Origin: Pseudonocardiales bacterium | Lineage (GTDB): Bacteria; Actinomycetota; Actinomycetes; Mycobacteriales; Pseudonocardiaceae | Assembly (NCBI GenBank): GCA_019241525.1 | Contig: JAFAWY010000118.1 | Coordinates: forward strand, 47 to 64,046 | Direction: 5' to 3' | Length of the DNA: 64,000 nt | Shown here: positions 16,546 through 33,366 of the stretch, piece after piece | Layout of the letters: each line of letters opens with the position of its first letter | How positions within the stretch are numbered: position 1 is the stretch's first letter | Program-made: the position numbers and the translations under genes | The notes under the pieces: model-generated | Databases searched by the model: none | Seen by the model: the letters and a program-made list of their open reading frames with translations, nothing else | What the model was told of the DNA's origin: nothing

Positions 16546-18192
<1,647 letters not shown>

Positions 18193-20940: not shown

Positions 20941-20943
20941 CCC

Positions 20944-21900
20944 GTGCCCAACGCCGGCGCCGGGATCCGCCTGCTGCCCAACGCGATCACCGTGCTGGCG
21001 CTGTGCTCGGGCCTGTCTGCGCTGAAGTTCGCCCTGGACGGTAACTTCACCGGTGCGCTCGCCGCGATCGGGTTGGCGGCGTTGCTGGACGCGCTGGATG
21101 GCCGGCTGGCCCGGCTGCTTGATGCCACCTCCCGGATTGGTGCCGAGCTCGACTCGCTGGCCGACTCTGTCTCCTTCGGCGTGGCGCCGGCGGTGATCCT
21201 GTTCGTCTGGTCACTGCACGGCCTGCGCGTGGGCTGGCCGGTGGCGTTGGTGTTCACCGTCTGCGCGGTGCTGCGGTTGGCCCGGTTCAACACCTTGCTC
21301 GACGACACCGAGGCGCTGCCGTTCGCCAAGGAGTTCTTCGTCGGGATCCCTTCGCCGGCCGGTGCTCTGCTGGCGCTGTTGCCGCTGACGGTGTTCCTCC
21401 ACCTGGGCGCAGGATGGTGGTCGTCGCCGTGGGTGGTGGCAGGCTGGACGATTGCGGTGGCCTTGGCGATGGTCAGCCGGTTGCCCACCCTGTCGCTGAA
21501 GGCGGTGCAGGTCCCCCCACGGGCGGTGGCACCGCTGCTTGTGGTGATCGCTGGCCTAGCCGCCGCAGTGATCACGTTCCCGTACGCGTCGCTGGCCGCG
21601 GCGATGCTGCTGTACCTGGTGCACGTGCCGTACGCGAGCTACCGCTACCAGTGGCTGGCGCGGCATCCCTCGGCCTGGGACGTCCCACCCCGCCAGCGCC
21701 GGGTGATTCGCCGCACCGCGCGCAGCATGCGCCGCCTTGGATTGCGCCCACCACTGCGCCGGCGAGTAGCGGGGGCCGCGGCGGGAGCAGCAGCTCGAGC
21801 CGGTGCTGTGGTACGCCGCCGCCGCGGCCCGGAGGTCAACGGCCTGGTGAAGGGCGAAAGCGGCCGGCCTCGCCGCATCGGCCTGCGCCGCCACCCCTGA
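20944..21900 (+). CDS. pssA: CDP-diacylglycerol--serine O-phosphatidyltransferase
   Basis: CDP-alcohol phosphatidyltransferase motif LLDALDGRLARLLDATSRIGAELDSLADSVSFG. Follows psd, as in mycobacteria. Confidence 0.92.
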   Translation: MPNAGAGIRLLPNAITVLALCSGLSALKFALDGNFTGALAAIGLAALLDALDGRLARLLDATSRIGAELDSLADSVSFGVAPAVILFVWSLHGLRVGWPVALVFTVCAVLRLARFNTLLDDTEALPFAKEFFVGIPSPAGALLALLPLTVFLHLGAGWWSSPWVVAGWTIAVALAMVSRLPTLSLKAVQVPPRAVAPLLVVIAGLAAAVITFPYASLAAAMLLYLVHVPYASYRYQWLARHPSAWDVPPRQRRVIRRTARSMRRLGLRPPLRRRVAGAAAGAAARAGAVVRRRRGPEVNGLVKGESGRPRRIGLRRHP

Positions 21901-21962
21901 CCCGCGTGTCGCGCCCCGGTGCCGGGCGTGTCGCTCCCTCGTGCCCGCTGTGTCGCGCCAGC
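21901..21962 (+). repeat. 22-bp tandem repeat array, family member 2 (3 diverged units)
   Basis: CCCGCGTGTCGCGCC / CCGGGCGTGTCGCTCC / CCCGCTGTGTCGCGCC at 21-22 bp spacing, starting at the first base after the pssA TGA. Confidence 0.85.
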
Positions 21963-22160
21963 TGGTGCACCAAGAAATCGTGAAACCGCTCGCGAACGAG
22001 CCAGAGGCATACAAATACCCCGGAAACCGGGCGCGCGGAAGCGCGGTGTTTACATTGCGACCGTTTGGCAACGTGGCGGTTTTCTCGATGCAACGAAACG
22101 GAAATAGTCGCCCTCTGTACTGAGTACGGCACTCACGGAATCGCGAAGGGATAGGCAGGC

Positions 22161-23516
22161 ATGACCCTGCGCGTCAAAGTTGCGCCACAAGTCGGAGACG
22201 ACCTCGAAGGAATACACAGCCCAGTGGTGATTGTGGGCGGCGGGCAAGCCGGCCTGTCCATGAGCTACTGCCTCTCCCAACGGAACGTCGAACACATAGT
22301 ACTCGAACGCAACCGAATAGCGTATGAGTGGCGCGACCGGCGATGGGACTCATTTTGTCTGGTCACCCCGAATTGGCAATGCCAGCTGCCCGACTTTCCT
22401 TACCCCGGTGACGATCCTGACGGTTTCATGGTGCGCGATGAGGTCGTGCGTTATATCGAAGCCTACGCCCAATTCTTCAACCCGCCTATCATCGAAGGTG
22501 TTTCGGCCACCCGGCTGCGCCGCGATCGCAAGGGCCGGTACCTGGTCGGCACAAGCCGTGGTGAACTGATAGCCGACCAAGTGGTGATGGCCACCGGGCC
22601 CTACCAGGTGCCTTTGATCCCGCGGTTGACCGAGCGACTGCCCGACGAGCTGACCCAGTTGCACTCGTCGCAATACCGCAACCCCGACCAGCTGCCACCC
22701 GGCGCCGTCATGGTGGTCGGTACCGGCCAATCCGGTTGCCAGATCGCCGAGGACCTGCACCTGGCCGGCCGCCAGGTCCATCTCGCAGTCGGCAGCGCTC
22801 CCCGAGTCGCCCGGTTCTACCGCGGACGCGACGTCGTGGCGTGGCTGGACGCCGTGGGCTACTACCGCAAGGCGGTCAACGAGTTTGCCGATGCCGACAC
22901 GGTGCGATTTCGGGTCAACCACTACGTCACTGGCCGCGACGGCGGTCGTGACATCGATCTTCGCGCGTTCGCTCGCGAAGGCATGCGGCTGTACGGGCGG
23001 CTTACCGGAGCGACTGGCACCACGTTGCGGTTTGCCCAGGACCTTCGGCGAAACCTCGATCACGCCGACGCAGTCTCGGAAAGCATCAAGGATTCGATTG
23101 ACCGGTACATCGAGTCGCACGGCATCGACGCCCCGACCGAGCCGCGGTACACGCCGGTATGGGTACCCGACCACAAACGCACCGAGGTGGAGATCCGCAA
23201 CGCCGGGATCACTTCGGTGATCTGGAGCACCGGATTCGGCCGTGACGACCGGTGGATCGAAGTCCCGGTCTTCGACGGCCGCGGTTACCCCACGCACGAT
23301 CGGGGCGTCACTTCCAGCCCCGGCCTGTATTTCCTCGGGTTGCCGTGGCAGCACACCTGGGGATCGGGCCGGTTGTCCGGGGTGGCTGACGATGCCGCGT
23401 ATCTGGCCGAGCGCATCACCACTGGCCCCGACCACGTGTTCCGCTGGATCGCAGGCACGCCGAACAGCACCTTCCCCCGGGACGATGAGTGGGTCGCCCC
23501 CCGGACGGTGGCGTGA
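22161..23516 (+). CDS. flavin-dependent monooxygenase/oxidoreductase (Nit1C-cluster, MSMEG_0569-like)
   Basis: Two dinucleotide-binding motifs (VVIVGGGQAGLS; VMVVGTGQSGCQIAEDL); 451 aa; first gene of the cluster. Confidence 0.85.
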   Translation: MTLRVKVAPQVGDDLEGIHSPVVIVGGGQAGLSMSYCLSQRNVEHIVLERNRIAYEWRDRRWDSFCLVTPNWQCQLPDFPYPGDDPDGFMVRDEVVRYIEAYAQFFNPPIIEGVSATRLRRDRKGRYLVGTSRGELIADQVVMATGPYQVPLIPRLTERLPDELTQLHSSQYRNPDQLPPGAVMVVGTGQSGCQIAEDLHLAGRQVHLAVGSAPRVARFYRGRDVVAWLDAVGYYRKAVNEFADADTVRFRVNHYVTGRDGGRDIDLRAFAREGMRLYGRLTGATGTTLRFAQDLRRNLDHADAVSESIKDSIDRYIESHGIDAPTEPRYTPVWVPDHKRTEVEIRNAGITSVIWSTGFGRDDRWIEVPVFDGRGYPTHDRGVTSSPGLYFLGLPWQHTWGSGRLSGVADDAAYLAERITTGPDHVFRWIAGTPNSTFPRDDEWVAPRTVA

Positions 23517-23521
23517 GCGCC

Positions 23522-24343
23522 ATGCCCGAGATCTGCGACGCGCACCGGCATCTGGGAGTCATGCCCGCCTTCCCTTTCTACGGCGGCCCCCCGGTCAGAC
23601 CCGACACGACCGCCAGAGCCACCATTGCCGAGCTGATCTCAGATCTCGACGACGAAGGCACGGAACGAGCGCTGGTGCTGCCCAATTACGGCGTGCCAGA
23701 CCCAGATATCGCATTCTCGTTCAACGAACTGGTCGTCGAGGCGGCCCAGACCGATGACCGGATCCGCGCCGCACTGTGGGTATCGCCCAAGCCCGCCGAC
23801 GCCCAGCGGACCACGAAGGCGCTCGCGCTCGCCGGTGAAACCGGAGTCCGGGCCCTGAAGCTGAGCTTCCTACTCGGTGGCAAAGTCAGCGACCCGGAGT
23901 GCACCCCGCAACTCGATCGGATTTTTGACACGGCCCGGCAACACGATCTCGTGGTGCACGTCCACACGTCTCCCGGGGGCAGCTCGGACATCGACGAGAT
24001 CAGCAAGCTCGTCGAGACCTACGGCGACACCGTGGCGATCCACCTCGTGCATTTCGGCGGAGGGATCAGCGGGCATATCAAGCTGGCCGGTGGCCGATTC
24101 TTCGATTGGATAGCCGCTGGTAAACGTGTCTACACCGATCTGTCCTGGTCAGTGGGATTCACCCCGAAGTGGCTGACACATGAAATCGAACGGCGCGGAT
24201 TAGGTCATGACCGAGTCCTGTTCGCCAGTGATCAGCCTTGGGGAGACTTTGCCGGTGAGCTGGCGAAGCTGCGGGAAGCCACCGGCGACGGTGCGCTGAC
24301 CAATCGGGTGTTCCACGACACCTTCGAAAAACTGTACGGATAA
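23522..24343 (+). CDS. amidohydrolase-2 family metal-dependent hydrolase
   Basis: N-terminal CDAHRHLG (HxH) motif plus ..VHVHTS.. and ..LFASDQPW.. motifs. ATG 23522, or GTG 23513 overlapping the upstream TGA. Confidence 0.75.
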   Translation: MPEICDAHRHLGVMPAFPFYGGPPVRPDTTARATIAELISDLDDEGTERALVLPNYGVPDPDIAFSFNELVVEAAQTDDRIRAALWVSPKPADAQRTTKALALAGETGVRALKLSFLLGGKVSDPECTPQLDRIFDTARQHDLVVHVHTSPGGSSDIDEISKLVETYGDTVAIHLVHFGGGISGHIKLAGGRFFDWIAAGKRVYTDLSWSVGFTPKWLTHEIERRGLGHDRVLFASDQPWGDFAGELAKLREATGDGALTNRVFHDTFEKLYG

Positions 24344-24368
24344 GTTTCACTGATGAGGAGGACGTCAC

Positions 24369-24881
24369 ATGTCCGAGCTGACTGACATCGAGAAACAGAG
24401 TATGGAAGAGATTCCACACCCGTCGCTGCCGGAAGGGTCGACCATCTATGGCGGCACGAAAGTCTTCCCGGATTACCAGGCCGAAAACGGGGAAACCTAT
24501 TTCACCTTGGTGCACGGGATAGCACACGAATCCTCGGTCAGCTTCGTCGCGATCCTGCAGGCCACCCGCGCGCAGCGCAAGGGATTCGAATCGGCAATCT
24601 ACTTCTACGGCCCGGGTTCGCTGAACTGCCTGGCCACTCGCGGATTTCCGACGACAGGAAACTCCGCTTTCCCGGGCGAGCACAACATCAACGACTCCCT
24701 CAAGACGTTCATGAAGGAAGGCGGCAAGGTGTACTGCTGCCGGTTCGGGCTGTCCCTACACGGCGCCCGCGAAGAAGACCTCATCGAGGGCGTCATCCCG
24801 ACTCACCCGCTCGACGTGCAGGACGCCTTGATCCACTACGCGCGGAAGGGCGCGATCATCAACTCCACCTACATGTTCTAG
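24369..24881 (+). CDS. conserved Nit1C-cluster protein, DsrE/DsrF-like fold suspected (Sll0783/MSMEG_0572-type?)
   Basis: 170-aa ORF with GAGGAGGA SD. The C-terminal part (..GKVYCCRFGLSLHGAREEDLIEGV..) resembles DsrE-family proteins. The family assignment is tentative. Confidence 0.6.
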   Translation: MSELTDIEKQSMEEIPHPSLPEGSTIYGGTKVFPDYQAENGETYFTLVHGIAHESSVSFVAILQATRAQRKGFESAIYFYGPGSLNCLATRGFPTTGNSAFPGEHNINDSLKTFMKEGGKVYCCRFGLSLHGAREEDLIEGVIPTHPLDVQDALIHYARKGAIINSTYMF

Positions 24882-24882
24882 T

Positions 24883-24942
24883 GGCCACGTTCTCGAGCCA
24901 GACGTTCTCGAGCCAGACGTTCTCGAGGCAGACCCTCTAGGG
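24883..24942 (+). repeat. 15-bp tandem repeat (CCAGACGTTCTCGAG), 2 perfect + 2 degenerate units
   Basis: Perfect units at 24898-24912 and 24913-24927, with degenerate flanking units. Fills the spacer between two cluster genes. Confidence 0.9.
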
Positions 24943-24949
24943 AGCAGCC

Positions 24950-26017
24950 GTGCGCGTTGGCGCCGACACCTTCACGACACGCGTGGACATCGCCGTGCGC
25001 GGCGTGCAGATGGACGCGCCGGTACGCCGCCCGGACGGAGCCGGACCCAGCGATGACGGTCACGTACTGGTCGATGGTGCCAACGCCGCGCTGCCCCGGA
25101 ACTCGAACAGCCCTTACCAGCTACGCGACGGCCGGATCTTCCTCGGAGAGCTGGATACCGGGCTGTCATTGCAGCTGGTCAAGCGCCCGCAGTTCTACGA
25201 GCTGGTCACCGCCGACGGGGTGCCTTACGAGAAGATCGCCCGGTTGCACGGCGCCGACGTGCTGGCCACCACCGTGGTGCAGACCTGCATCCGGTACGCC
25301 GAAGACCAGCGCTGCCGATTTTGCACCATCGAGGAGTCCCTACGATCTGGCGCCACTATCGCCGCGAAGACCCCAGCCCAGCTCGCCGAGGTGGCGCAGG
25401 CGGCGGTTGCGTTGGATGGCGTCCGGCAGATGGTGATGACCACGGGCACCACGGCCGGTCCGGATCGCGGTGCTCGCAACCTGGTCCGCTGCGTGCGGGC
25501 GGTGCTCGCCGCGGTCCCCGGGTTGCCTATCCAGGTGCAGGTCGAACCGCCACGCGATCTGAGCGTGCTGACCGAGCTGCACGACGCAGGTGCCACCGCG
25601 ATCGGCATCCACGTCGAGTCACTCGACGACGAGGTACGCAGGCGGTGGATGCCCGGCAAGGGATCCGTCCCGATGGCCGAGTACGAGACGGCCTGGGATG
25701 AGGCGGTACGGGTGTTCGGCAGCAACCGGGTGTCCACCTACCTGCTGGTGGGGCTGGGCGAGGATCCCGACGAGTTGGTGGCCGGCGCCAGCCGGTTGAT
25801 CAACCGCGGGGTGTACCCGTTCGTGGTGCCGCTGCGCCCGATGGCCGGCACGCTGGCCCGCCGTGACGGTGTCGGTGCACCACCGATCGAGCTGGTCCGG
25901 TACGTCACCGAACGGGTCGCCGCCCTGCTCCGGGACGCCGGAATGATCGGCGCTGATCAGCAGGCCGGCTGCGCCGCGTGCGGGGCATGCGGTGTGCTCT
26001 CGGCAGCGGGAGCGTGA
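24950..26017 (+). CDS. radical SAM-type protein of the Nit1C cluster (MSMEG_0568-like)
   Basis: Cys triad C113-X8-C122-X2-C125 (QTCIRYAEDQRCRFC), a TIM-barrel-like length, and a C-terminal CAACGAC motif. GTG start after AGGGAG. Confidence 0.75.
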   Translation: MRVGADTFTTRVDIAVRGVQMDAPVRRPDGAGPSDDGHVLVDGANAALPRNSNSPYQLRDGRIFLGELDTGLSLQLVKRPQFYELVTADGVPYEKIARLHGADVLATTVVQTCIRYAEDQRCRFCTIEESLRSGATIAAKTPAQLAEVAQAAVALDGVRQMVMTTGTTAGPDRGARNLVRCVRAVLAAVPGLPIQVQVEPPRDLSVLTELHDAGATAIGIHVESLDDEVRRRWMPGKGSVPMAEYETAWDEAVRVFGSNRVSTYLLVGLGEDPDELVAGASRLINRGVYPFVVPLRPMAGTLARRDGVGAPPIELVRYVTERVAALLRDAGMIGADQQAGCAACGACGVLSAAGA

Positions 26018-26023
26018 GGGCCC

Positions 26024-27424
26024 GTGCTTGCCACCGTGACTTATCGCAGCAGTACCGGTCTTGGAGAGGTGCTGCTGGGCCGCGCCGCGCGCCAACCGGA
26101 GTTTCACGTCGAACCCGCCGCGGACCAGGCCGCCTATCACCAGCTACGTACCCGGGTATTCGTGCAGCAGCAGGGATTATTTTCCGGGTCCGACCGTGAC
26201 AGCCGTGACGACGACCCGCGCACCCTGGTCTTGGTCGCCCGGGATCACACCGGCTGCGTGCTCGGCGGTGTACGGCTCGGCCCGGTGGACGACGGCCCCG
26301 ACCTCGGGTGGTGGTTCGGCGGCCGGCTGGTGGTCGACCCGGACTGCCGGGTCCGCGGTGTGGGCGCGGCCCTGGTCCGGGCCGCCTGCGCGCACGCGGA
26401 AAGCGCCGGGGTGCTGCGTTTCGAAGCGACCGTGCAGGTACGCAACGAGGTGTTCTTCCGGCGACTTGGCTGGACCACGATCCGCCCGGTGACCGTGGTC
26501 GGCGCACCGCATGTGCTGATGCGCTGGCCGGTCGGCCGGATCGCCGCGCTCGTGGCCGCGACCAAGGCCGAGCTGGGTTCGCTGCTATCCGGCCTGGCAC
26601 CTGCTTGCCCGGGTTTTCTCGGTGACGATGGATCACCAGTACCCGGCAGCGACCTGGTCGCTGCCTGCGACGCGATCGTGCCATCCATGGTCGAAAGGGA
26701 CCCGGAATGGGCCGGCTGGTGCTCCGTGCTGGTCAACGTCAACGACCTGGCCGCGATGGGGGCAACGCCGGTCGGTCTGCTCGACGCGCTGGGAGCGCGC
26801 GACCGCTCGTTCGCCAGCCGGGTGTTGACCGGGCTGCGCAGGGCGAGCCAGGCCTACGACGTGCCAATCCTCGGTGGCCACACCCAGTTCGGCGTGCCCG
26901 CCACGCTGTCGGTGACCGCGCTGGGCCGCGCGGCGAATCCCGTCCCCGGCGGGGGTGGCCGCCCGGGCCATCGGCTGCGGCTGGCTGTGGATACCGCGGG
27001 CGGGTGGCGGCCGGGATATGCCGCGTGCCAATGGGATTCGACGTCACGCCGCCGGACACCAGAACTGCGAGCCATGCTGGGCTCGGTCGCCGCTGCCCGC
27101 CCGGCGGCGGCGAAGGACGTCTCGATGGCCGGGGTAGCCGGCACTGCGGGAATGCTGGCCGAGGCCAGCCGATGCCGGGCGGTGCTCGACGTCGCCGCGG
27201 TGCCCAGGCCGGCAACAGCCACCGTCGGCGACTGGTTTACCTGCTTCCCCGGGTTCGGGATGCTGACGGCTGACGAACCGGATCGCCCTCTGTTGCCGGC
27301 ATCTCCGGCGGTCAGCGCGGACTGTGGCGAGTTGGTCGCCGGTCACGGAGTGGCCCTACGCTGGCCGGACGGGGAGTTGACTGAGGTGATCACCGACGCG
27401 GTGACTGGTCTGGGTGCGGCATGA
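26024..27424 (+). CDS. GNAT N-acetyltransferase fused to AIR-synthase-related (PurM/ThiL/HypE-fold) domain
   Basis: N-terminal GNAT core (..GGRLVVDPDCRVRGVGAALVRAACAHAE..). The C-terminal part has ..LVNVNDLAAMGATPVGLLDALG..VPILGGHTQ.. typical of AIRS-like N-domains. Confidence 0.8.
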   Translation: MLATVTYRSSTGLGEVLLGRAARQPEFHVEPAADQAAYHQLRTRVFVQQQGLFSGSDRDSRDDDPRTLVLVARDHTGCVLGGVRLGPVDDGPDLGWWFGGRLVVDPDCRVRGVGAALVRAACAHAESAGVLRFEATVQVRNEVFFRRLGWTTIRPVTVVGAPHVLMRWPVGRIAALVAATKAELGSLLSGLAPACPGFLGDDGSPVPGSDLVAACDAIVPSMVERDPEWAGWCSVLVNVNDLAAMGATPVGLLDALGARDRSFASRVLTGLRRASQAYDVPILGGHTQFGVPATLSVTALGRAANPVPGGGGRPGHRLRLAVDTAGGWRPGYAACQWDSTSRRRTPELRAMLGSVAAARPAAAKDVSMAGVAGTAGMLAEASRCRAVLDVAAVPRPATATVGDWFTCFPGFGMLTADEPDRPLLPASPAVSADCGELVAGHGVALRWPDGELTEVITDAVTGLGAA

Positions 27425-28257
27425 GCCCGCTGCGGATGGCCGCTGCCGCGGCGAACTTCGACCGGGATCTCGAGGCCGACTTCGCCGAGATTGAGCGGCT
27501 TGTCGGTGCCGCGCGTGCCCAGGGGGTGCGCCTGCTCGCCTTACCCGAGGCCGCCTTGGGCGGGTACCTGGCGGACCTGGACGGTGCTGCCGGAACGCCA
27601 CCCGCGTTGACCCCGGACGGCCCGGAAATGCGCAGGCTGGCCACGCTGGCCGGCGACGTGGTTGTCGCGGTCGGCTACTGCGAAGACGGCGGTGGCCAGC
27701 TGTTCAACAGCGCAATCTGCGTGACCGGCGACGGGGTACTGGGGCACCATCGCAAGGTGCACCAGCCGCTGCGCGAGGACGCCAGTTACAGCGCTGGCGA
27801 CCGCTTCGCCGCCTTCGACACGCCCGTGGGCCGGCTCGGCATGATGATCTGCTACGACAAGGCCTTTCCAGAATCGGCACGGGCATTGGCGCTCGACGGG
27901 GCCGAGATCGTGCTGTGCCTGTCGGCCTGGCCGACCAGCCGCACGAATCCTGCGCCGCAGCTGGAGCAGGACCGGTGGAAGCGCCGGTTTGACCTGTTCG
28001 ACCAGGCTCGGGCGCTGGAGAATCAGATCGTGTGGCTGTCGGCCAACCAGTCTGGGCAGTTCGGGTCGCTGCGGTTCGTGGGTAGCGCCAAGGTCGTCGA
28101 CCCCGCGGGGGAGATCCTGGACGATACCGGGGTGTCTGCTGGTCTGGCGGTCGCTGAGCTGGATGTGCAGGAGGCTCTGGACAGGGCCCGCAGGTCGATG
28201 GCCCACTTGCGCGATCGCCGGCCGGAGGCGTACCGGCTTCCCGCCGCTGCGCGGTGA
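27421..28257 (+). CDS. carbon-nitrogen hydrolase (nitrilase superfamily), catalytic residues intact
   Basis: Glu in LLALPEAAL, Lys in HHRKVH, Cys in MMICYDKAFPE. ATGA overlap with the upstream gene. Confidence 0.88.
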   Translation: MSPLRMAAAAANFDRDLEADFAEIERLVGAARAQGVRLLALPEAALGGYLADLDGAAGTPPALTPDGPEMRRLATLAGDVVVAVGYCEDGGGQLFNSAICVTGDGVLGHHRKVHQPLREDASYSAGDRFAAFDTPVGRLGMMICYDKAFPESARALALDGAEIVLCLSAWPTSRTNPAPQLEQDRWKRRFDLFDQARALENQIVWLSANQSGQFGSLRFVGSAKVVDPAGEILDDTGVSAGLAVAELDVQEALDRARRSMAHLRDRRPEAYRLPAAAR

Positions 28258-29096
28258 GCGCGATCCGGATCGGTGCGGTCGCGGCGAAATTCGGCCGCGA
28301 CCTTGACTTCGACCTGCAGCGGATCGCCACGCTGATCGAACATGCCCGCCAATCCGGGGTGGCCCTGCTGGTGCTTCCGGACGCTGCGCTCGGCGGCTAC
28401 CTCGGCGACTTGCACCAGCCTGACCCAGCTGGGTTGCCGCCTGCCTTGGAACTCGACGACCCGCACGTCCTCAAGGTGGCGGGGCTGGCTGCGGAGATGG
28501 TGGTCTGTTTCGGTTTCTGCGAAACCGACGGGAACCGGCGCTTCAACACCGCGGTGTGCGTCCATGACGGCGCCCTGCTGGGCAGCCACCGCAAGGTGCA
28601 CCAGCCAGCCGGAGAGTCGATCGCCTACGCCGCGGGTGAGCGTTTCGGCGCGTTCGACACCCCCGTAGGGCGGCTCGGGATGTTGATCGATTACGACAAG
28701 ACCTTCCCCGAATCGGCCCGGACGTTGGCGCTGGATGGCGCTGAAGTGCTGGCCTGCTTGTCCGCCTGGCCGACCAGCGTCACCAATCGTGCGCCGCGGA
28801 TGGCGCAAGATCGTCAAGCCCGGCTGTTCGATCTCTATGACCAGGCCCGCGCCGCGGAGAACCAGGTCGTGCTGGTGTCGTCCAACCAGACTGGCGCGCA
28901 GGGTCAACTGCGCTTCCTGGGGCAGGCCAAGGTGGTTGGGCCCGGCGGGGACATCCTGGCCCGGACCTGGTCCAAAGCGGGCATCGCCACCGCGGAACTG
29001 GATGTAGCCGGGGAGATTGCCAAGGCGCGCCGGGTCCTGCGGCACCTCGACGAGCGCAAACCCGGCGTCTACCGGATCGGGCTGATACCCGGCTGA
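28254..29096 (+). CDS. carbon-nitrogen hydrolase paralog lacking catalytic Cys and Glu (pseudoenzyme candidate)
   Basis: Alignable with the preceding gene, but LVLPDAAL carries D43 (GAC 28380-28382) and MLIDYDKTFPE carries D146 (GAT 28689-28691). GTGA overlap upstream. Confidence 0.85.
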   Translation: MSAIRIGAVAAKFGRDLDFDLQRIATLIEHARQSGVALLVLPDAALGGYLGDLHQPDPAGLPPALELDDPHVLKVAGLAAEMVVCFGFCETDGNRRFNTAVCVHDGALLGSHRKVHQPAGESIAYAAGERFGAFDTPVGRLGMLIDYDKTFPESARTLALDGAEVLACLSAWPTSVTNRAPRMAQDRQARLFDLYDQARAAENQVVLVSSNQTGAQGQLRFLGQAKVVGPGGDILARTWSKAGIATAELDVAGEIAKARRVLRHLDERKPGVYRIGLIPG

Positions 29097-30184
29097 TGAG
29101 GATCGCGCTACTCACCTACTCCACAAGACCCCGGGGCAGCGTGGTGCACACCCTTGCGCTGGCTGAGGCGCTCGTCGAGGCCGGCCAGCAGGTGACGGTC
29201 TGGGCGCTGGGTCGCGCCGGGGATATCGCCTTCTTCCGACCCGTCCAGCCTGGGATGACAGTGCGCATCGTGCCGTTCCCGGAGATCACCGGCGAGGCGG
29301 TGGGCATGCGGATCCTGCGCTCCATCCGGGTGCTGGGCGACGCTTTCGACCCGAGTGGCTACGACGTGGTGCACGCGCAGGACTGCATCAGCGCCAATGC
29401 CGTGCCCCGCTGCATCCGCACCGTGCATCATCTCGACGAGTTCAGCACGCCGGAACTGGCCGCCTGCCACGAACGCGCCATCGTCAACCCCGTCGCCCAC
29501 GTCTGCGTGTCGGCCGCGGTCGCTGCGCAACTGCATGCCGGTTGGGGCATCACCGCCACGGTGATCCCCAATGGCGTCGATGCGGCGCGGTTCGCCTGCG
29601 CGGCCGGCCCGGGCGGCGCAGCCGCAAGGGCAGTGTGGGGGGCACGCCTGGGCCGTTACGTGCTGACCGTCGGGGGCATCGAACCGCGCAAAGGCTCGCT
29701 GACCCTGCTGGAGGCCTACGCGCTGTCGCGCCGGGACATGCCCGACCTGCAGCTGGCGATCGCCGGTGGCGAGACCCTGTTCGACTACCGGGACTACCGG
29801 GCCCGCTGGGAGCAGCGAGCCCAGGAACTCGCAGTCGAGCCCCTGGTGCTCGGGCCGGTGACGCACGCTGAGCTTCCCGCTCTGGTAGCCGCCGCAGGGG
29901 TCTTCGCGTTTCCCTCGACCAAGGAAGGATTCGGGCTAGCCGCGATGGAAGCGCTGGCCGCCGGTGTCCCGCTGGTCGTGTCAAACCTGCCGGTGTTCCG
30001 GGAGATCTTCACCGGCGCCGCCCGCTTCGCCGACGGTCCGGCACAGTTCGCAGCGGCATTGATGGCCGCGCTGGCCGAACCAGACGGCGCTGGCACGCGG
30101 CGAGCCGGCCGCGCACTTGTCTCCCGCTACACCTGGCCAACCACCGCCCAGCGCCACCTCGATCTCTACCGAACCCTCACCTAA
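29096..30184 (+). CDS. GT4-family glycosyltransferase (MSMEG_0565-like)
   Basis: MRIALLTYSTRPRGSVVHTLALAEAL.. and ..FPSTKEGFGLAAMEALAAGVPLVVS.. (E-x7-E region). TGATG junction with the upstream gene. Confidence 0.88.
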   Translation: MRIALLTYSTRPRGSVVHTLALAEALVEAGQQVTVWALGRAGDIAFFRPVQPGMTVRIVPFPEITGEAVGMRILRSIRVLGDAFDPSGYDVVHAQDCISANAVPRCIRTVHHLDEFSTPELAACHERAIVNPVAHVCVSAAVAAQLHAGWGITATVIPNGVDAARFACAAGPGGAAARAVWGARLGRYVLTVGGIEPRKGSLTLLEAYALSRRDMPDLQLAIAGGETLFDYRDYRARWEQRAQELAVEPLVLGPVTHAELPALVAAAGVFAFPSTKEGFGLAAMEALAAGVPLVVSNLPVFREIFTGAARFADGPAQFAAALMAALAEPDGAGTRRAGRALVSRYTWPTTAQRHLDLYRTLT

Positions 30185-30195
30185 CTCCTCCCCCA

Positions 30196-30258
30196 CCCGG
30201 CGTGTCGTGTCCTCGCGCCCGCCGTGTCGCGCCCTCCTGCCCGGTGTGTCGCGCGCCC
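30196..30258 (+). repeat. 22-bp tandem repeat array, family member 3 (3 units)
   Basis: CCCGGCGTGTCGTGTCCTC / CCCGCCGTGTCGCGCCCTC / CCCGGTGTGTCGCGCGCCC at exactly 22-bp spacing, 12 nt after the glycosyltransferase TAA. Confidence 0.9.
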
Positions 30259-30307
30259 ATGCGCTTCTGCAGATGCGGGCGTGCTCGAGAGACCACCGAT
30301 CACACAG

Positions 30308-31099
30308 TTACGGGCGTGTGGCGCTGAAGCAGAATTGGATGCAGGCGAAAGAGAACTCACCGCGCTGGTCGAGCTCGCGCTGCTCAGCCACCCAGGCGGC
30401 AACATCGGCGGCAGACAGGCCACATCGCCCAGCGACGAACTGCGAGACGAAGTGGAAAACCGTTGCGGCATAAGTGTCCGGATCAAGGTCTGCGGTGGTG
30501 AAGGCATAACCCACCATCTCGACGCCCTCGAAGCCGACCGATCGGAGTTGCGCGGCCAGCGTCCGGGGCAGGGCGGGATGAGTCAGGTGCTCGTCCCAGG
30601 CTTGCAGTACTCGCTGCATCCGGGCGGGCTCCGGTGAATGCCAGGACACGGTGCTCCAGTCGACATCCCAGACCACCACACGGCCGCCGGGCCGCACCAC
30701 GCGGTGTAGTTCGCCCAGCGCCGCCGCCACGTCCGGGACGAATTCGAGCACCTGCACGCACAGCGCGCGATCGAAAGCGGCATCATCCAACGGCAAGGCG
30801 GCTACGTCCGCCTGGTGCAACATCACGTTCGGGAAGGCCGCGCATCGACGTGCAGCGGTCGCAAGCATCTGCGGGCTGCGGTCTACTCCGACAATCGATC
30901 CGGTGGTACCCACCTGATCAACAAGCTCCGCGATGGCGAAACCTGGCCCGCAGCCCACGTCCAGGATCCGGTCCCCCGGACGGGCACCCAGCGCGTCGCG
31001 GACCAACGCACGCCGCCGCACCATGTCCCGGGTGCGGTACCGGAGGTCGAACTGCTCGGCGGCATCCTGATCGAAGACCAGCTGGCCCACTCCAGACAT
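30308..31099 (-). CDS. class I SAM-dependent methyltransferase
   Basis: Motif I ILDVGCGPGFAIAELV; 263 aa. Confidence 0.85.
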   Translation of the reverse strand: MSGVGQLVFDQDAAEQFDLRYRTRDMVRRRALVRDALGARPGDRILDVGCGPGFAIAELVDQVGTTGSIVGVDRSPQMLATAARRCAAFPNVMLHQADVAALPLDDAAFDRALCVQVLEFVPDVAAALGELHRVVRPGGRVVVWDVDWSTVSWHSPEPARMQRVLQAWDEHLTHPALPRTLAAQLRSVGFEGVEMVGYAFTTADLDPDTYAATVFHFVSQFVAGRCGLSAADVAAWVAEQRELDQRGEFSFACIQFCFSATRP

Positions 31100-31188
31100 C
31101 GTGCCCCCTCAGCGATACCGGCTGCCACAACCTCGTACCGATGTCTGAACCGCCACCGTGACCTCACCCCGCACTAGGCTCGGCGGTC

Positions 31189-33366
31189 GTGAGCGCGCCG
31201 CAGATCACGCTGACCGCCAGGCTCAGCACCTCTGCGGCAGACGCCCGGCGGGGCGTGGTGCGGCTGCACCCGGAGGTACTCGACGCGCTGGGCTTGCGAC
31301 CGTGGGACGCGGTGCGGCTCACCGGTGCCCGGACCACTGCAGCACTCGCCGCAGCCGGGCAGACCACTCCCGGTACGGCGCTGGTCGACGACCTGACGCT
31401 GTCCAACCTCGGGCTGACCGACGGGTCGGAAGTGGTGGTCGCGCCGGTGCAGGTGCCGGCCGCACGCTCGATCACCGTCGCCGGCTCCACCTTGGTCAGC
31501 CGCGTGGTGAGCCCGGAGACGCTGCGGCTGGCACTGGCCGGCAAGGTTGTCACCGCCGGGGATGCCGTGTCCTTGCTGCCCCAGGACGTGTCCCCGGGGT
31601 CGGATGCCAGCACCGCGCGTAGCCGGCTGGCCGCCGCGATCGGGGTCAGCTGGACCAGCGAACTGCTCACCGTGACCGCCACCGACCCAGCCGGACCGGT
31701 TGCGCCGCACCCGTCCACGGTGATCGGTTGGCGAGGCGGCCAGCGCTCCGCGGGGAGACCAGAGCAGCCACCGCACAGCGACCCAAAACCGGAACTACCC
31801 GTCCCGGCGGTCGCCGATCTGGTCGGGGCCCAGGACGCCGCCCGGCGGCTGGCCGAGTGGTTCGAGCTCACCTTCCACCGCCCCGAGCTGTTGCAAAGGT
31901 TGGGCGCCAGCACCCGTCTCGGGGTTGCGCTGCACGGCCCCGCAGGCGTCGGTAAGGCCACGGTGGTACGGGCGGTGGCCCGCGATGCCGGAGCGCATCT
32001 CGTGGAGCTGGCCGGCCCGAGCGCGGCTGCGCTGCAGCCCGGCGACGCCGCCCAACGGGTGCAGGAGGCCATCACCGCCGCCCGGCAGCGTCAACCGAGC
32101 GTGCTGCTGATCACCGACATCGAGGCGCTGCTGCCGGCCACCAACCCGCCGCCGCTGGCCACCGTCGTGCTCGACGTGCTGGCGCCGGCGCTGGACGATG
32201 TCGCGCTGGTCGTCACCACGGCGCACCCGGAGTCGGTCGATCCCCGGCTGCGCGCACCCGATCTGGTCGACCGCGAGCTGTCCATACCGCTACCCGATGG
32301 GCGCACCCGCACCGAACTGCTCCGGGTGCTGCTGATTGCAGTGCCGCTGGCGGCGGGCGTTGACCTGGCGGCGATAGGGGAGCGCACTCCGGGTTTCGTC
32401 GCGGCCGATCTCGTGGCGCTGCGCCGGGAGGCAGCGGTGCGGGCCGCGCTACGCCACGCTTCCGGCAACGAATCTGACCTGACGATCACCCAGCAGGATC
32501 TCATCGACGCGCTGGATACCGTGCGGCCGGTGTCGATGTCCACCTCGAACACCGTGCTCACCGGTGGACTGACCCTCGACGAGGTCGGTGACATGGTGCA
32601 GACCAAGCAGGCGCTGACCGAGGCGGTGCTGTGGCCGCTGCGCTACCCCGATTCGTTCACCCGTCTCGGCGTCGACCCGCCGCGCGGGGTGCTGCTCTAC
32701 GGACCACCCGGTTGCGGCAAGACCTTCCTGATCCGGGCGCTGGCCGGCTCGGGTGCGCTCAACGTGTTCTCGGTCAAGGGGGCCGAACTGCTGGACAAGT
32801 GGGTCGGGGAATCGGAACGGGCAGTGCGGGAATTGTTTCGACGAGCCCGCGACGCCGCACCTGCGCTGGTGTTCCTCGACGAGGTCGACGCGCTGGCTCC
32901 GCGTCGCGGTGGGTCCTCAGACGCTGGAGTCGCCGATCGGGTGGTAGCCGCCCTGCTCACCGAGCTGGACGGGGTGGAGCCGATGCGTGATGTGGTGGTC
33001 CTCGGCGCCACCAACCGTCCCGAGCTCATCGACCCGGCATTACTACGACCCGGCCGGCTGGAACGCCTGGTGTACGTACCACCGCCAGACGCCCAGGCCC
33101 GCGCCGCCATCCTGCGCGCTGCGGCCCGCAACACTCCCCTGGCCGCCGATGTTGATCTCGACGCACTCGCCGCTGACCTGGATGGTTATTCCGCGGCGGA
33201 TTGTTCGGCCCTGATCCGTGAGACCGCGTTGACTGCGATGCGGCAGTCCTTGGACGCCACCGAGGTGACGTCCGAGCAGCTGGCCACCGCCCGCCGCACC
33301 GTTCGCCCATCCCTGGACCCGATCCAGCTAGCCGAACTGGCCCATTACGCAGACACGCGCACCTAG
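31189..33366 (+). CDS. CDC48/p97-like double-AAA ATPase (Rv0435c/Msm0858 type)
   Basis: N-domain QITLTARLSTSAADARRGVVRLHPEVLDALGLRPWDAVRLTG; D1 GPAGVGKA; D2 GPPGCGKTFL with DEVDAL Walker B. Confidence 0.92.
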   Translation: MSAPQITLTARLSTSAADARRGVVRLHPEVLDALGLRPWDAVRLTGARTTAALAAAGQTTPGTALVDDLTLSNLGLTDGSEVVVAPVQVPAARSITVAGSTLVSRVVSPETLRLALAGKVVTAGDAVSLLPQDVSPGSDASTARSRLAAAIGVSWTSELLTVTATDPAGPVAPHPSTVIGWRGGQRSAGRPEQPPHSDPKPELPVPAVADLVGAQDAARRLAEWFELTFHRPELLQRLGASTRLGVALHGPAGVGKATVVRAVARDAGAHLVELAGPSAAALQPGDAAQRVQEAITAARQRQPSVLLITDIEALLPATNPPPLATVVLDVLAPALDDVALVVTTAHPESVDPRLRAPDLVDRELSIPLPDGRTRTELLRVLLIAVPLAAGVDLAAIGERTPGFVAADLVALRREAAVRAALRHASGNESDLTITQQDLIDALDTVRPVSMSTSNTVLTGGLTLDEVGDMVQTKQALTEAVLWPLRYPDSFTRLGVDPPRGVLLYGPPGCGKTFLIRALAGSGALNVFSVKGAELLDKWVGESERAVRELFRRARDAAPALVFLDEVDALAPRRGGSSDAGVADRVVAALLTELDGVEPMRDVVVLGATNRPELIDPALLRPGRLERLVYVPPPDAQARAAILRAAARNTPLAADVDLDALAADLDGYSAADCSALIRETALTAMRQSLDATEVTSEQLATARRTVRPSLDPIQLAELAHYADTRT

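What the first reader, a model, noticed from the sequence alone, without database searches (positions are those of the whole stretch)
22161..30184. Complete Nit1C-type cluster (FMO, amidohydrolase, DsrE-like, radical SAM, GNAT-AIRS fusion, two nitrilases, GT4) whose chemistry is unresolved
Eight co-directional genes have minimal spacers: a 5-nt gap or GTGA, 25 nt with SD, 68 nt filled by a repeat, 6 nt, ATGA, GTGA and TGATG. The gene set matches the nitrilase-associated 'Nit1C' cluster known from Pseudomonas (nitB-H), Synechocystis (sll0783-0787) and M. smegmatis (MSMEG_0565-0572). Those loci gave several TIGRFAM families their 'nitrogen starvation response' names. Published links are to nitrogen starvation and cyanide assimilation. 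To my knowledge the substrate and product of the pathway remain undefined. A radical SAM enzyme, an ATP-grasp-like AIRS domain, a GNAT, a nitrilase, a flavin monooxygenase and a glycosyltransferase together suggest assembly or breakdown of a small N-rich glycosylated metabolite.
Basis: partly seen in the sequence, partly recalled or inferred. Interest (0 to 1): 0.65.

Follow-up and report, generated by a model that had tools for sequence, protein, structure and literature searches.

The report
Nitrogen-starvation gene cluster, gpr/Nit1C type
This is an intact copy of a gene cluster already known from Mycobacterium smegmatis (gpr) and common in actinobacteria, probably switched on by nitrogen starvation; its chemistry is still unknown, and one of its two "nitrilases" lacks the catalytic cysteine.

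Summary

Six curated NCBIfam models pass their cut-offs on five proteins:
- FMO: TIGR04046
- DsrE-like protein: TIGR04044
- radical SAM: TIGR04043
- GNAT-AIRS fusion: TIGR04045 and TIGR04050
- GT4: TIGR04047

It is not the canonical Nit1C cluster:
- The Nit6803-type nitrilase model fails (30 and 25 bits against 502.6).
- The small NitG/MSMEG_0570 gene is absent.
- A PF04909 enzyme, closest in predicted fold to decarboxylases and a lactonase-type hydrolase, is added.

The content matches the mycobacterial gpr cluster (MSMEG_0565-0572). Thirty-nine of the 80 nearest species loci have the identical gene order.

New details:
- CNH2 has Asp in place of the nucleophile Cys in all 62 orthologues, so it is a likely non-catalytic partner of the intact CNH1.
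- The DsrE-like protein is far more conserved than the enzymes and has one universal Cys.
- The radical SAM enzyme has a Cx8CxxC motif and a C-terminal CxxCxxC.
- A conserved GlnR-box-like site lies upstream.

No paper found resolves the chemistry. Verdict: a new member of a known kind, of moderate to low interest.

The parts
22047..22122 (+). Conserved upstream operator/promoter block. It holds TGTTTAC, then two GCAAC elements 22 bp apart (22068 and 22090), a GlnR-box-like GCAAC-n6-GAAAT at 22090-22105 (-71 from the FMO ATG), an ATAGTC -10-like element and CTGTACTGA.
   Evidence: This is the only alignable block in the upstream regions of 14 related loci. It is the only match in the 64-kb window to G[CT][AT]AC-n6-GAAA[CT]. 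The strict M. smegmatis GlnR consensus Gn2AC-n6-GnAAC is about 10-fold enriched upstream of the FMO gene across 66 loci. The consensus is taken from PMC3662644.
22161..23516 (+). MSMEG_0569-family flavin-dependent oxidoreductase (small class-B/type II FMO-like), 451 aa, with two GxGxxG motifs at residues 26 and 187.
   Evidence: TIGR04046 scores 652 bits against a 498 cut-off, covering model positions 2-400 of 400. Pfam hits are Pyr_redox_3 and FMO-like. Nearest solved structures are the type II FMOs 4usr, 4usq and 4a9w. Motifs.
23522..24343 (+). PF04909 (Amidohydro_2) metal-dependent TIM-barrel enzyme, 273 aa. Alternative GTG starts lie at 23513 and 23489. It is not part of the M. smegmatis/M. 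hodleri or canonical clusters.
   Evidence: Pfam PF04909 scores 57 bits; there is no NCBIfam hit. Orthologues are 271-276 aa. H8, H10, H146, H148, H174, H177 and D237 are invariant in 36 sequences. The AF2 model (pLDDT 75) is closest to isoorotate decarboxylase, a probable 2-pyrone-4,6-dicarboxylate hydrolase (LigI-like) and LigW decarboxylase, with TM 0.61-0.67.
24369..24881 (+). MSMEG_0572/Sll0783 (NitB) family DsrE-fold protein, 170 aa, with the strongest SD of the operon (GAGGAGG). Cys124 is the only universally conserved Cys.
   Evidence: TIGR04044 scores 255 bits against a 110 cut-off. The AF2 model (pLDDT 79) matches DsrE Swol_2425, YchN, DsrEFH and TusBCD. Median identity over 41 full loci is 92%, against 67-77% for the other seven proteins. 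C124 aligns with the single Cys of the Klebsiella homologue and is kept in Rhodococcus and Mycobacterium.
24887..24933 (+). 15-bp tandem repeat (ACGTTCTCGAGCCAG x 3.1) filling the DsrE-rSAM spacer. It is specific to this lineage.
   Evidence: TRF result. The spacer is about 9 nt in most relatives, and some carry inserted hairpins instead. The window's repeat folds no better than shuffled sequence (z = +0.92). The L011 insert is a 21-bp stem (z = -4.25).
24950..26017 (+). MSMEG_0568-family radical SAM protein, 355 aa. It has a non-canonical Cx8CxxC motif (C113, C122, C125) and a C-terminal CxxCxxC (C341, C344, C347).
   Evidence: TIGR04043 scores 485 bits against a 304 cut-off, and the NF045502 'variant rSAM' model also hits. 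There is no CxxxCxxC motif. All six Cys are conserved in the actinobacterial orthologues wherever the alignment reaches them, and also in Klebsiella, Rhodococcus and Mycobacterium. The only solved relative is lipoyl synthase 2, weakly (E = 0.011).
26024..27424 (+). GNAT N-acyltransferase fused to an AIR-synthase-related (PurM-superfamily) ATP-utilising domain, 466 aa, MSMEG_0567 type.
   Evidence: TIGR04045 scores 98 against 68 (residues 30-167). TIGR04050 scores 474 against 312 (residues 173-463). TIGR04049 (sll0787 type) scores only 188 against 321. Nearest solved structures are ThiL, HypE and PurM. The RxxGxG, GDDG, NDLAAMGA and GGHT motifs were read by eye from the sequence and matched to textbook GNAT and PurM-superfamily motifs; no tool checked them.
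27421..28257 (+). CNH1: a carbon-nitrogen hydrolase with an intact Glu43-Lys112-Cys144-Glu151 tetrad. It is the orthologue of the first CN-hydrolase (MSMEG_0571 position) of mycobacterial clusters. It is not a Nit6803/branch-1 nitrilase.
   Evidence: PF00795 scores 142 bits. TIGR04048 scores 30 bits against 502.6. The tetrad reads EKCE in 67 of 68 orthologues. Nearest solved structures are PH0642, the P. abyssi enzyme 3ivz and N-carbamoylputrescine amidohydrolase. M. hodleri position.
28254..29096 (+). CNH2: a paralogue of CNH1 with the nucleophile Cys replaced by Asp146 and catalytic Glu replaced by Asp43. Probably a non-catalytic partner subunit. It is the orthologue of the GT-adjacent CN-hydrolase (MSMEG_0566 position).
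   Evidence: PF00795 scores 123 bits. The tetrad reads DKDE in 60 of 62 orthologues, with Asp at the Cys position in all 62. The same holds in Rhodococcus and M. hodleri. In 50%-identity representatives of the CNH2 clade the first two positions drift (G/H/D/A and K/Q/A) while Asp-Glu stays.
29096..30184 (+). MSMEG_0565-family GT4 glycosyltransferase, 362 aa, with an E-x7-E motif.
   Evidence: TIGR04047 scores 463 bits against a 260 cut-off, covering model positions 1-372 of 373. Weaker hits go to MshA, BshA and EpsE. Pfam hits are Glyco_transf_4 and Glycos_transf_1. The EGFGLAAME motif was read by eye from the sequence.

Best explanation
The locus is an intact operon of the MSMEG_0565-0572 ('gpr') type. 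This is the actinobacterial branch of the Nit1C cluster family. It sits in an uncultured Pseudonocardiaceae-like genome, between pssA and a CDC48-like AAA ATPase.

How it most likely works:
1. A GlnR-type activator bound at the conserved box near -71 switches the operon on under nitrogen starvation. This is inferred from the motif and from M. smegmatis data.
2. The eight genes are made from one transcript, with translational coupling. This is inferred from the overlaps.
3. The very highly conserved DsrE-fold protein acts through its single universal cysteine (Cys124). It would serve as a stoichiometric hub or carrier that the enzymes dock on. This is inferred.
4. The flavin oxidoreductase, the variant radical SAM enzyme, the GNAT-AIRS fusion and the PF04909 enzyme prepare a small nitrogen-containing intermediate. 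This is inferred and the chemistry is unknown.
5. A heteromer of active CNH1 and nucleophile-less CNH2 then cleaves a C-N bond (amide, carbamoyl or nitrile type) and releases ammonia. This is inferred.
6. The GT4 enzyme glycosylates a substrate or by-product. This is inferred.

The expected physiological output is the one measured for gpr in M. smegmatis: better use of scarce nitrogen, a more reduced NADPH pool and peroxide tolerance.

What is shown here is gene content, family membership, the state of the catalytic residues, conservation and synteny. The confidence given applies to the identity and to the nitrogen-starvation ammonia-release framework. Any specific substrate is below 0.3.
For: - Family membership lies above curated cut-offs for five of the eight proteins, six models in all.
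- Content matches a mycobacterial cluster one-to-one apart from two genes. M. hodleri L087 reads DsrE, CNH(EKCE), 0570, FMO, rSAM, GNAT-AIRS, CNH(DKDE), GT4.
- The M. smegmatis operon is GlnR-bound. It is induced more than 100-fold on nitrogen run-out, and 263-fold relative to a glnR mutant. Its deletion lowers NADPH/NADP and peroxide resistance, and raises the nitrogen needed for biofilms.
- The Synechocystis sll0783 mutant also has a lower NADPH/NADP ratio.
- A conserved GlnR-box-like site lies upstream, with 10-fold motif enrichment across loci.
- Overlapping or short junctions link all eight genes.
- The identical order occurs in 39 species loci, with no conserved neighbours outside the eight genes, so it behaves as a self-contained unit.
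- The DsrE fold is confirmed, the protein has 92% median identity, and it has one universal Cys.
- CNH1 keeps EKCE and CNH2 has DKDE.
- A related family of fused double CN-hydrolases pairs an EKCE domain with an EKGE domain. This fits an active plus inactive heteromer.
- Reduced modules FMO-DsrE-CNH1(-CNH2) exist. In Pseudonocardia they lie directly behind an amino-acid permease gene.
Against: - No expression, binding or enzymatic data exist for this organism.
- The window's box reads GAAAT rather than GnAAC, so it misses the strict consensus.
- Radical SAM, GNAT, AIRS and GT4 enzymes are more typical of biosynthesis than of scavenging.
- The NADPH and peroxide phenotypes are not explained by ammonia release alone.
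- The carrier role of the DsrE-like protein and the CNH1-CNH2 heteromer are inferences. No complex was modelled.
- The permease association occurs within one genus only, so it may reflect a single event.
- Genomes with reduced modules may also hold a full cluster. MAG RYN_112 has both (L004 and L012).
Confidence: 0.55

Rival explanations
1. The cluster is biosynthetic. It builds a glycosylated, redox-active (possibly sulfur-containing) small molecule or cofactor that protects nitrogen-starved cells. In this reading the parts would act as follows:
- The radical SAM enzyme, with the DsrE-like sulfur carrier, inserts sulfur.
- The GNAT and GT4 act as MshD and MshA do in mycothiol synthesis.
- The hydrolases trim precursors.
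- The flavoenzyme recycles or oxidises the product.
For: - The radical SAM enzyme's only solved relatives are lipoyl synthases, and LipA/LipS2 models give weak hits.
- It has a C-terminal CxxCxxC that could hold an auxiliary cluster.
- The DsrE/TusD sulfur-relay fold has a conserved Cys.
- GT4 gives secondary hits to MshA, BshA and SenB, and the FMO gives a weak hit to the YpdA bacillithiol-disulfide reductase model.
- The gpr deletion is peroxide-sensitive and redox-shifted.
- NCBI attaches an inferred (IEA) 'biosynthetic process' term to the family, and this is discussed in PMC7815647.
Against: - All these similarities are far below family cut-offs.
- Canonical Nit1C lacks the GT, so glycosylation cannot be the core function.
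- Reduced FMO-DsrE-CNH modules lack the radical SAM, GNAT-AIRS and GT genes.
- Making a new metabolite does not obviously raise NADPH.
- No product has ever been reported.
Confidence: 0.25
2. The cluster assimilates or detoxifies cyanide and nitriles, as the Pseudomonas nitBCDEFGH cluster does. CNH1 would play the NitC role on cyanohydrins or other nitriles.
For: - Homologous NitB, NitD, NitE/F and NitH families are present.
- Nit1C is genetically linked to growth on cyanide, and NitC hydrolyses 2-hydroxynitriles.
- Among CNH1's nearest solved relatives is a Pyrococcus enzyme (3ivz) whose depositors name it a nitrilase or beta-ureidopropionase.
Against: - TIGR04048 is not met: 30 bits against 502.6.
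- According to PMC7815647, only branch-1 members of the nitrilase superfamily hydrolyse nitriles. CNH1 is closer to PH0642 and N-carbamoylputrescine amidohydrolase.
- The M. smegmatis cluster responds to nitrogen starvation and GlnR rather than to cyanide in the studies read.
Confidence: 0.12
3. The adjacency is fortuitous, or the cluster is a decaying remnant without joint function.
For: None beyond two facts: CNH2 lacks catalytic residues, and the NitG/0570 gene is missing.
Against: - All eight ORFs are full length against their models.
- The same order occurs in 39 species.
- CNH2 is as conserved as CNH1, with medians of 73% and 75%.
- The junctions are coupled.
Confidence: 0.01

Closest known systems
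gpr cluster of Mycobacterium smegmatis (MSMEG_0565-0572; GlnR-dependent peroxide resistance), represented here by the M. hodleri locus L087
   Same: - The same families are present: DsrE-like, FMO, radical SAM, fused GNAT-AIRS and GT4.
- There is the same pair of non-Nit6803 CN-hydrolases, one EKCE and one DKDE, with the DKDE copy next to the GT.
- A GlnR-type box lies upstream.
   Different: - The window lacks the ~100-aa MSMEG_0570 gene and has an extra PF04909 enzyme.
- Order here is FMO-AH2-DsrE-rSAM-GNAT/AIRS-CNH1-CNH2-GT. Mycobacteria have DsrE-CNH1-0570-FMO-rSAM-GNAT/AIRS-CNH2-GT.
- Protein identities to M. hodleri are 53-84%.
Canonical Nit1C (nitBCDEFGH of Pseudomonas; sll0783-0787 of Synechocystis; Klebsiella plasmid pKCTC2242, L081)
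   Same: Homologues are present with these identities to the Klebsiella proteins: NitB 49%, NitD 44%, NitE 37%, NitF 35% and NitH 58%. Both show operon-like packing. Both are linked to nitrogen limitation in the literature.
   Different: - No Nit6803-family nitrilase: 25% identity, and TIGR04048 is not met.
- No NitG.
- GNAT and AIRS are fused.
- Added here are a second, nucleophile-less CN-hydrolase, a PF04909 enzyme and a GT4.
- Regulation is presumably by GlnR rather than the sigma-54 activator NitA.
DsrE/TusD/YchN sulfur-relay proteins
   Same: The fold matches with Foldseek probability 1.00 and TM 0.5-0.8 normalised to the target. A conserved Cys sits at the end of a beta-strand.
   Different: Sequence identity is only 12-17%. 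The Pfam DsrE score of 21.7 is just below the gathering threshold of 22.7. No partner DsrF/H or TusB/C is present. A sulfur-carrier function is untested.
Fused double CN-hydrolase proteins (~550-600 aa) found among the 50%-identity representatives
   Same: They pair an intact EKCE domain with a domain lacking the Cys nucleophile (EKGE). This is analogous to CNH1 plus CNH2.
   Different: - Identity is only 23-37%.
- The substitution is Gly, not Asp.
- They are fused rather than separate genes.
- Their genomic context is unknown.
- Whether they relate functionally to this cluster is untested.

Membership tests
MSMEG_0565-0572 / gpr-type cluster | MSMEG_0572/Sll0783-family DsrE-like protein (TIGR04044) | tested here: met
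   255.3 bits against a 109.85 cut-off, covering model positions 2-159 of 159.
MSMEG_0565-0572 / gpr-type cluster | MSMEG_0568-family radical SAM (TIGR04043) | tested here: met
   485.2 bits against a 303.7 cut-off.
MSMEG_0565-0572 / gpr-type cluster | Fused GNAT (TIGR04045) and MSMEG_0567 C-terminal AIRS-like domain (TIGR04050) | tested here: met
   97.7 against 68.45 and 473.8 against 312.2, in one 466-aa ORF.
MSMEG_0565-0572 / gpr-type cluster | MSMEG_0569-family flavin oxidoreductase (TIGR04046) | tested here: met
   652.1 bits against a 498.35 cut-off.
MSMEG_0565-0572 / gpr-type cluster | MSMEG_0565-family GT4 (TIGR04047) | tested here: met
   463.3 bits against a 259.85 cut-off.
MSMEG_0565-0572 / gpr-type cluster | Two generic CN-hydrolases (MSMEG_0571 and MSMEG_0566 positions) | tested here: met
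   Two PF00795 proteins. They are orthologous to the two CN-hydrolases of M. hodleri L087 at 53% (EKCE) and 63% (DKDE) identity. No curated model exists for them.
MSMEG_0565-0572 / gpr-type cluster | MSMEG_0570-family ~100-aa protein (TIGR04042) | tested here: not met
   No tblastn hit in the window with Klebsiella or actinobacterial members (best E 0.25-0.33). There is no room for it in the operon's spacers. It is present in 10 of the 80 related loci.
MSMEG_0565-0572 / gpr-type cluster | GlnR binding upstream and induction by nitrogen starvation | tested here: inconclusive
   A conserved GCAAC-n6-GAAAT box lies at 22090-22105, and the motif is enriched in relatives. Binding and expression cannot be tested with these tools.
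MSMEG_0565-0572 / gpr-type cluster | Peroxide-resistance and NADPH/NADP phenotype | not testable with these tools
   Known only for M. smegmatis.
Canonical Nit1C (nitBCDEFGH) | Nit6803-family (branch 1) nitrilase NitC, TIGR04048 | tested here: not met
   CNH1 scores 30.2 and CNH2 24.8 bits against a 502.6 cut-off. Identity to the Klebsiella NitC homologue is 25%.
Canonical Nit1C (nitBCDEFGH) | Separate GNAT (NitE) and sll0787-family AIRS-like (NitF, TIGR04049) genes | tested here: not met
   A single fused ORF. TIGR04049 scores 188.5 against a 321.3 cut-off.
Canonical Nit1C (nitBCDEFGH) | NitG small protein (TIGR04042) | tested here: not met
Canonical Nit1C (nitBCDEFGH) | NitB, NitD and NitH homologues | tested here: met
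   TIGR04044, TIGR04043 and TIGR04046 are above their cut-offs.
Canonical Nit1C (nitBCDEFGH) | Sigma-54-dependent activator NitA nearby | not tested
   None was seen among the flanking genes scanned. The whole window was not searched for it.
Radical SAM superfamily | Three-Cys motif for the SAM-binding [4Fe-4S] cluster (canonically CxxxCxxC) | tested here: inconclusive
   PF04055 scores 48 bits. There is no CxxxCxxC. Instead a conserved Cx8CxxC is present (Cx9CxxC in Klebsiella). This is consistent with the NCBIfam 'variant rSAM' model NF045502, 147 bits against 125. Cluster binding is untested.
Nitrilase superfamily, active enzyme | Glu-Lys-Cys catalytic triad | tested here: met
   Met for CNH1 (E43, K112, C144), with EKCE in 67 of 68 orthologues. 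Not met for CNH2 (D43, K114, D146), with Asp at the Cys position in 62 of 62 orthologues.

The most novel reading that the evidence does not exclude
The DsrE-fold protein is a covalent cysteine carrier. A one-carbon/nitrogen or sulfur unit would be built, modified and finally hydrolysed while bound to the protein, for example as a thiocarbamate, thiocyanate or persulfide on Cys124.

In this reading the HypE/ThiL-like AIRS domain, the variant radical SAM enzyme and the flavoenzyme act on the loaded carrier. An active/pseudo CN-hydrolase heterodimer (CNH1/CNH2) then releases ammonia. This would be a previously undescribed protein-tethered pathway that couples nitrogen salvage to the NADPH redox state. 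It would explain the shared phenotypes in mycobacteria, cyanobacteria and cyanide-using pseudomonads.
Probability: 0.15. Interest if true: 0.75.

Novelty: new member of a known kind. Interest (0 to 1): 0.35.

Why it matters
The Nit1C/gpr cluster family has been a known unknown since 2005. It is widespread, strongly induced by nitrogen starvation, and tied to cyanide use, NADPH balance, PHB accumulation and peroxide tolerance. Its substrate and product have never been found.

This window does not change that and is not unusual. The same eight-gene form is common in actinobacteria.

The comparative details found here do sharpen the experiments to do in a tractable relative or in M. smegmatis:
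- There is one real and one nucleophile-less CN-hydrolase.
- The DsrE-fold protein is hyper-conserved and has a single universal cysteine.
- The radical SAM enzyme has a variant cluster motif plus a second cysteine motif.
- Minimal FMO-DsrE-CNH modules exist.
- The small NitG/0570 protein is dispensable, and PF04909 is a frequent member.

Tried and rejected
- **NitG/MSMEG_0570 gene in the window.** tblastn with Klebsiella and actinobacterial members found nothing.
- **Known RNA elements.** An Rfam E-value scan of 20000-32000 gave no hit.
- **tRNA-linked island.** No tRNA occurs in the window.
- **Defence-system reading.** This was suggested by the PF20706 'GT4-conflict' hit. No PADLOC hit was found for any of the eight proteins.
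- **The 68-nt spacer repeat as a hairpin or attenuator.** It folds no better than shuffled sequence (z = +0.92), and it is not conserved.
- **The 22-bp repeat arrays bracketing the cluster as insertion scars.** A third array sits at 826-883, and among eight close relatives checked similar units flank the cluster in only one, L003. This is not supported.
- **Conserved accessory neighbours (transporters, regulators).** None recurs across genera.
- **Promoter and terminator consensus scans.** Counts were at chance level.
- **Sequence search of solved structures.** Nothing was found for the DsrE-like protein or the PF04909 protein, so folds were predicted instead.
- **Fetching the M. smegmatis locus itself.** M. 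hodleri served as the mycobacterial comparator.
- **The selenoprotein read-through idea for gpr** (PMC6039565). It was not pursued. Here the CNH1 stop overlaps the CNH2 start in another frame.

Full report
**Observation**

The window carries eight intact + strand ORFs between 22161 and 30184.
- FMO to gene 2: a GTGA overlap (GTG at 23513) or a 5-nt gap (ATG at 23522).
- Gene 2 to the DsrE-like gene: 25 nt with a GAGGAGG Shine-Dalgarno sequence.
- DsrE-like to radical SAM: 68 nt occupied by a 15-bp x 3.1 tandem repeat (24887-24933).
- Then a 6-nt gap, ATGA, GTGA and TGATG.

Orthologues of gene 2 are 271-276 aa, and an independent gene call picks the 273-aa form. The ATG at 23522 is therefore the likely start. 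The sequence is also found on two ENA metagenome contigs of 51 and 81 kb. The closest DsrE-like homologues, at 95-96% identity, are Pseudonocardiaceae and Pseudonocardiales MAGs.

**Family assignment**

Six curated NCBIfam models pass their cut-offs, on five proteins and with near full-length coverage:
- TIGR04046, flavin oxidoreductase: 652 against 498.
- TIGR04044, DsrE-like 'nitrogen starvation response protein': 255 against 110.
- TIGR04043, radical SAM: 485 against 304.
- TIGR04045 and TIGR04050, GNAT fused to the MSMEG_0567 AIRS-like domain: 98 against 68 and 474 against 312.
- TIGR04047, GT4: 463 against 260.

Three things do not fit a canonical Nit1C cluster as defined by Podar et al. 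2005. That definition is hypothetical/DsrE-like, nitrilase, radical SAM, GNAT, AIRS, ~100-aa hypothetical and FMO. The Klebsiella plasmid locus L081 is an example.
1. The defining Nit6803-family nitrilase model TIGR04048 scores only 30 and 25 bits against a 502.6 cut-off.
2. The small NitG/MSMEG_0570 protein has no tblastn match anywhere in the window (best E 0.25-0.33). The spacers leave no room for it.
3. The sll0787-type AIRS model is below its cut-off (188 against 321), because the protein is the fused MSMEG_0567 type.

Gene 2 has no NCBIfam hit and is a PF04909 (Amidohydro_2) protein.

**Comparison with relatives**

The DsrE-like protein has relatives in at least 555 of the scanned species genomes. 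The 80 best were fetched.
- 39 loci have the identical eight-gene order. Most others are cut by contig ends or carry small rearrangements.
- No gene family outside the eight recurs across genera. The cluster therefore moves as a self-contained unit.
- In the window and its closest relatives it lies between pssA and a CDC48-like AAA ATPase. The surrounding groEL-moeA-psd-pssA...AAA arrangement resembles, from my memory, the mycobacterial Rv0435c-Rv0440 region.
- The mycobacterial comparator, M. hodleri L087, reads DsrE-like, CN-hydrolase, 0570, FMO, radical SAM, GNAT-AIRS, CN-hydrolase, GT4. This matches the published annotations of MSMEG_0572 down to MSMEG_0565.
- A Rhodococcus megaplasmid has a third order.

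The window's cluster is thus the gpr type, minus the 0570 gene, plus a PF04909 enzyme, in a different order. Ten of the 80 actinobacterial loci carry a 0570 gene, in several directly upstream of the FMO alongside PF04909. The 0570 gene is therefore dispensable rather than replaced.

**The two 'nitrilases'**

- CNH1 and CNH2 are close paralogues (alignment).
- CNH1 keeps the Glu-Lys-Cys-Glu tetrad in 67 of 68 orthologues.
- CNH2 has Asp at the nucleophile position in all 62 orthologues, and Asp for the first Glu in 60. Rhodococcus and M. hodleri show the same.
- Among 50%-identity representatives of the CNH2 clade, the first Glu and the Lys drift (G/H/D/A and K/Q/A). This is typical of a site no longer used for catalysis.
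- CNH2 is nevertheless as conserved overall as CNH1, with medians of 73% and 75%.
- The same search found many ~550-600-aa proteins that fuse an EKCE domain to an EKGE domain. This independent pairing of an active with a nucleophile-less domain supports a CNH1-CNH2 heteromer by analogy.
- CNH1's nearest solved relatives are PH0642, the Pyrococcus abyssi enzyme 3ivz and N-carbamoylputrescine amidohydrolase. It is not a branch-1 nitrilase, the only branch said to hydrolyse nitriles in PMC7815647.

**Other proteins**

- **DsrE-like protein.** It has no detectable solved homologue by sequence. An AF2 model (pLDDT 79) matches DsrE, YchN, DsrEFH and TusBCD. It is much more conserved than its neighbours, at 92% median identity against 67-77%. 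Only Cys124 is shared with the Klebsiella, Rhodococcus and Mycobacterium proteins. It also has the strongest ribosome-binding site of the operon. The Synechocystis homologue is reported to be highly abundant in starved cells. Together these points suggest a stoichiometric hub or carrier.
- **Radical SAM protein.** It lacks CxxxCxxC. It has a conserved Cx8CxxC (Cx9CxxC in Klebsiella) and a conserved C-terminal CxxCxxC. Its only solved relative is lipoyl synthase 2, weakly.
- **AIRS-like domain.** It is closest to ThiL, HypE and PurM. From textbook knowledge this is the PurM superfamily, not ATP-grasp.
- **PF04909 protein.** It keeps the HxH/H/H/D metal ligands. Its model (pLDDT 75) is closest to isoorotate decarboxylase, a LigI-like hydrolase and LigW decarboxylase. 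A decarboxylase or lactonase role is at least as likely as amide hydrolysis.
- **Flavoenzyme.** It is nearest to small type II FMOs.

**Regulation and transcription**

- Upstream regions of 14 close relatives align only in one block. In the window this block is 22047-22122. It contains GCAAC elements 22 bp apart and a GCAAC-n6-GAAAT box at 22090-22105, 71 nt before the FMO start.
- The published M. smegmatis GlnR consensus is Gn2AC-n6-GnAACA.
- Several relatives match that consensus exactly. Kribbella loci carry GTTAC-n6-GAAAC.
- The strict motif is about 10-fold enriched in the 700 nt upstream of the FMO gene across 66 loci. The relaxed motif occurs only once in the 64-kb window.
- In M. smegmatis the operon is GlnR-bound and strongly induced by nitrogen starvation.
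- GlnR control here is therefore a reasonable inference, not a demonstration.
- Simple promoter and terminator scans were uninformative. No Rfam family, tRNA or defence-system model matches.

**Function**

No paper in the searchable library defines a substrate or product. Papers from 2021 and 2024 still call the cluster's function obscure, and NitB and NitG unknown.

Published phenotypes converge on two themes. The first is nitrogen limitation. The second is a lower NADPH/NADP ratio when the cluster (M. smegmatis) or its first gene (Synechocystis) is removed. Pseudomonas adds a link to cyanide assimilation.

My best reading is a GlnR-activated unit. The DsrE-fold protein would serve as a Cys-dependent hub. 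The oxidative, radical and ATP-dependent enzymes would prepare a small nitrogenous intermediate. The CNH1/CNH2 pair would release ammonia.

Reduced modules support a core made of these three functions. FMO-DsrE-CNH1-CNH2 occurs in seven loci, FMO-CNH1-DsrE in four and FMO-DsrE in two. In eight Pseudonocardia loci of these reduced types, an amino-acid permease gene lies directly upstream of the FMO. That is a single-genus association, however, and at least one genome holds both a full and a reduced copy.

The main rival is biosynthesis of a glycosylated, possibly sulfur-containing, redox-active metabolite. It rests on the following:
- LipA-like features of the radical SAM enzyme.
- The sulfur-relay fold.
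- Weak MshA, BshA and YpdA similarities.
- The peroxide phenotype.

I cannot exclude it. Direct cyanide or nitrile assimilation is less likely because the NitC-type nitrilase is missing.

**Verdict**

The cluster is the actinobacterial gpr-type relative of Nit1C, not a complete Nit1C, and it does not contain two nitrilases. It is a new member of a known and common kind. The unresolved chemistry is a long-standing open question, but this copy does not make it more testable than M. smegmatis already does. Interest is moderate to low (0.35). The pseudo-hydrolase pairing and the carrier-like DsrE protein are the most useful leads.

Noticed in passing
window 826-883, 21901-21958, 30197-30254: Three arrays lie on the + strand. 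Each holds three 22-bp tandem units with core CCGGYGTGTCGCGC, and each starts within about 15 nt of the stop codon of a + strand gene. Two of them bracket the cluster exactly. Among eight close relatives checked, similar units flank the cluster only in L003, so an insertion-scar reading is not supported. Their function is unknown.
   Followed up: partly
window 24882-24949; L003, L011, L014, L069, L077 DsrE-rSAM spacers: The spacer after the DsrE-like gene is about 9 nt in most relatives, but it is a hotspot for insertions. The window holds a 15-bp tandem repeat there. Several relatives hold long perfect hairpins instead (L011: 21-bp stem, -46.8 kcal/mol, z = -4.25). These might raise DsrE-like expression relative to the downstream enzymes.
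   Followed up: partly
proteins P0284-P0389 (representative search with window 28254-29096): There is a sizeable family of ~550-600-aa proteins made of two CN-hydrolase domains. The first has EKCE and the second EKGE (no nucleophile). This looks like a fused active/inactive pair. Their genomic context and function were not examined.
   Followed up: no
L009, L010, L022, L032, L035, L047, L052, L060 (Pseudonocardia spp.): Reduced modules (FMO-DsrE-CNH1-CNH2, or shorter) lack the radical SAM, GNAT-AIRS, PF04909 and GT4 genes. An amino-acid permease gene lies directly upstream. Some of these genomes hold more than one module.
   Followed up: partly
window 16546-21900 and 31189-33366: The cluster and a convergent methyltransferase gene (30308-31099, - strand) sit inside a housekeeping arrangement of groEL, moeA, psd, pssA ... 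CDC48-like AAA ATPase. From memory, this resembles the mycobacterial Rv0435c-Rv0440 region. That suggests insertion into a conserved neighbourhood.
   Followed up: partly
L053 (CAVPCF010000059.1): A MAG labelled 'Candidatus Melainabacteria' carries the full actinobacterial-type cluster, with a DsrE-like protein 92% identical to the window's. This is probably a binning or labelling error rather than a cyanobacteria-related host.
   Followed up: no
window 22001-26000: The first half of the cluster (FMO, PF04909, DsrE-like) has lower G+C (60-65%) than the second half and the flanks (about 70%). The cause was not examined.
   Followed up: no
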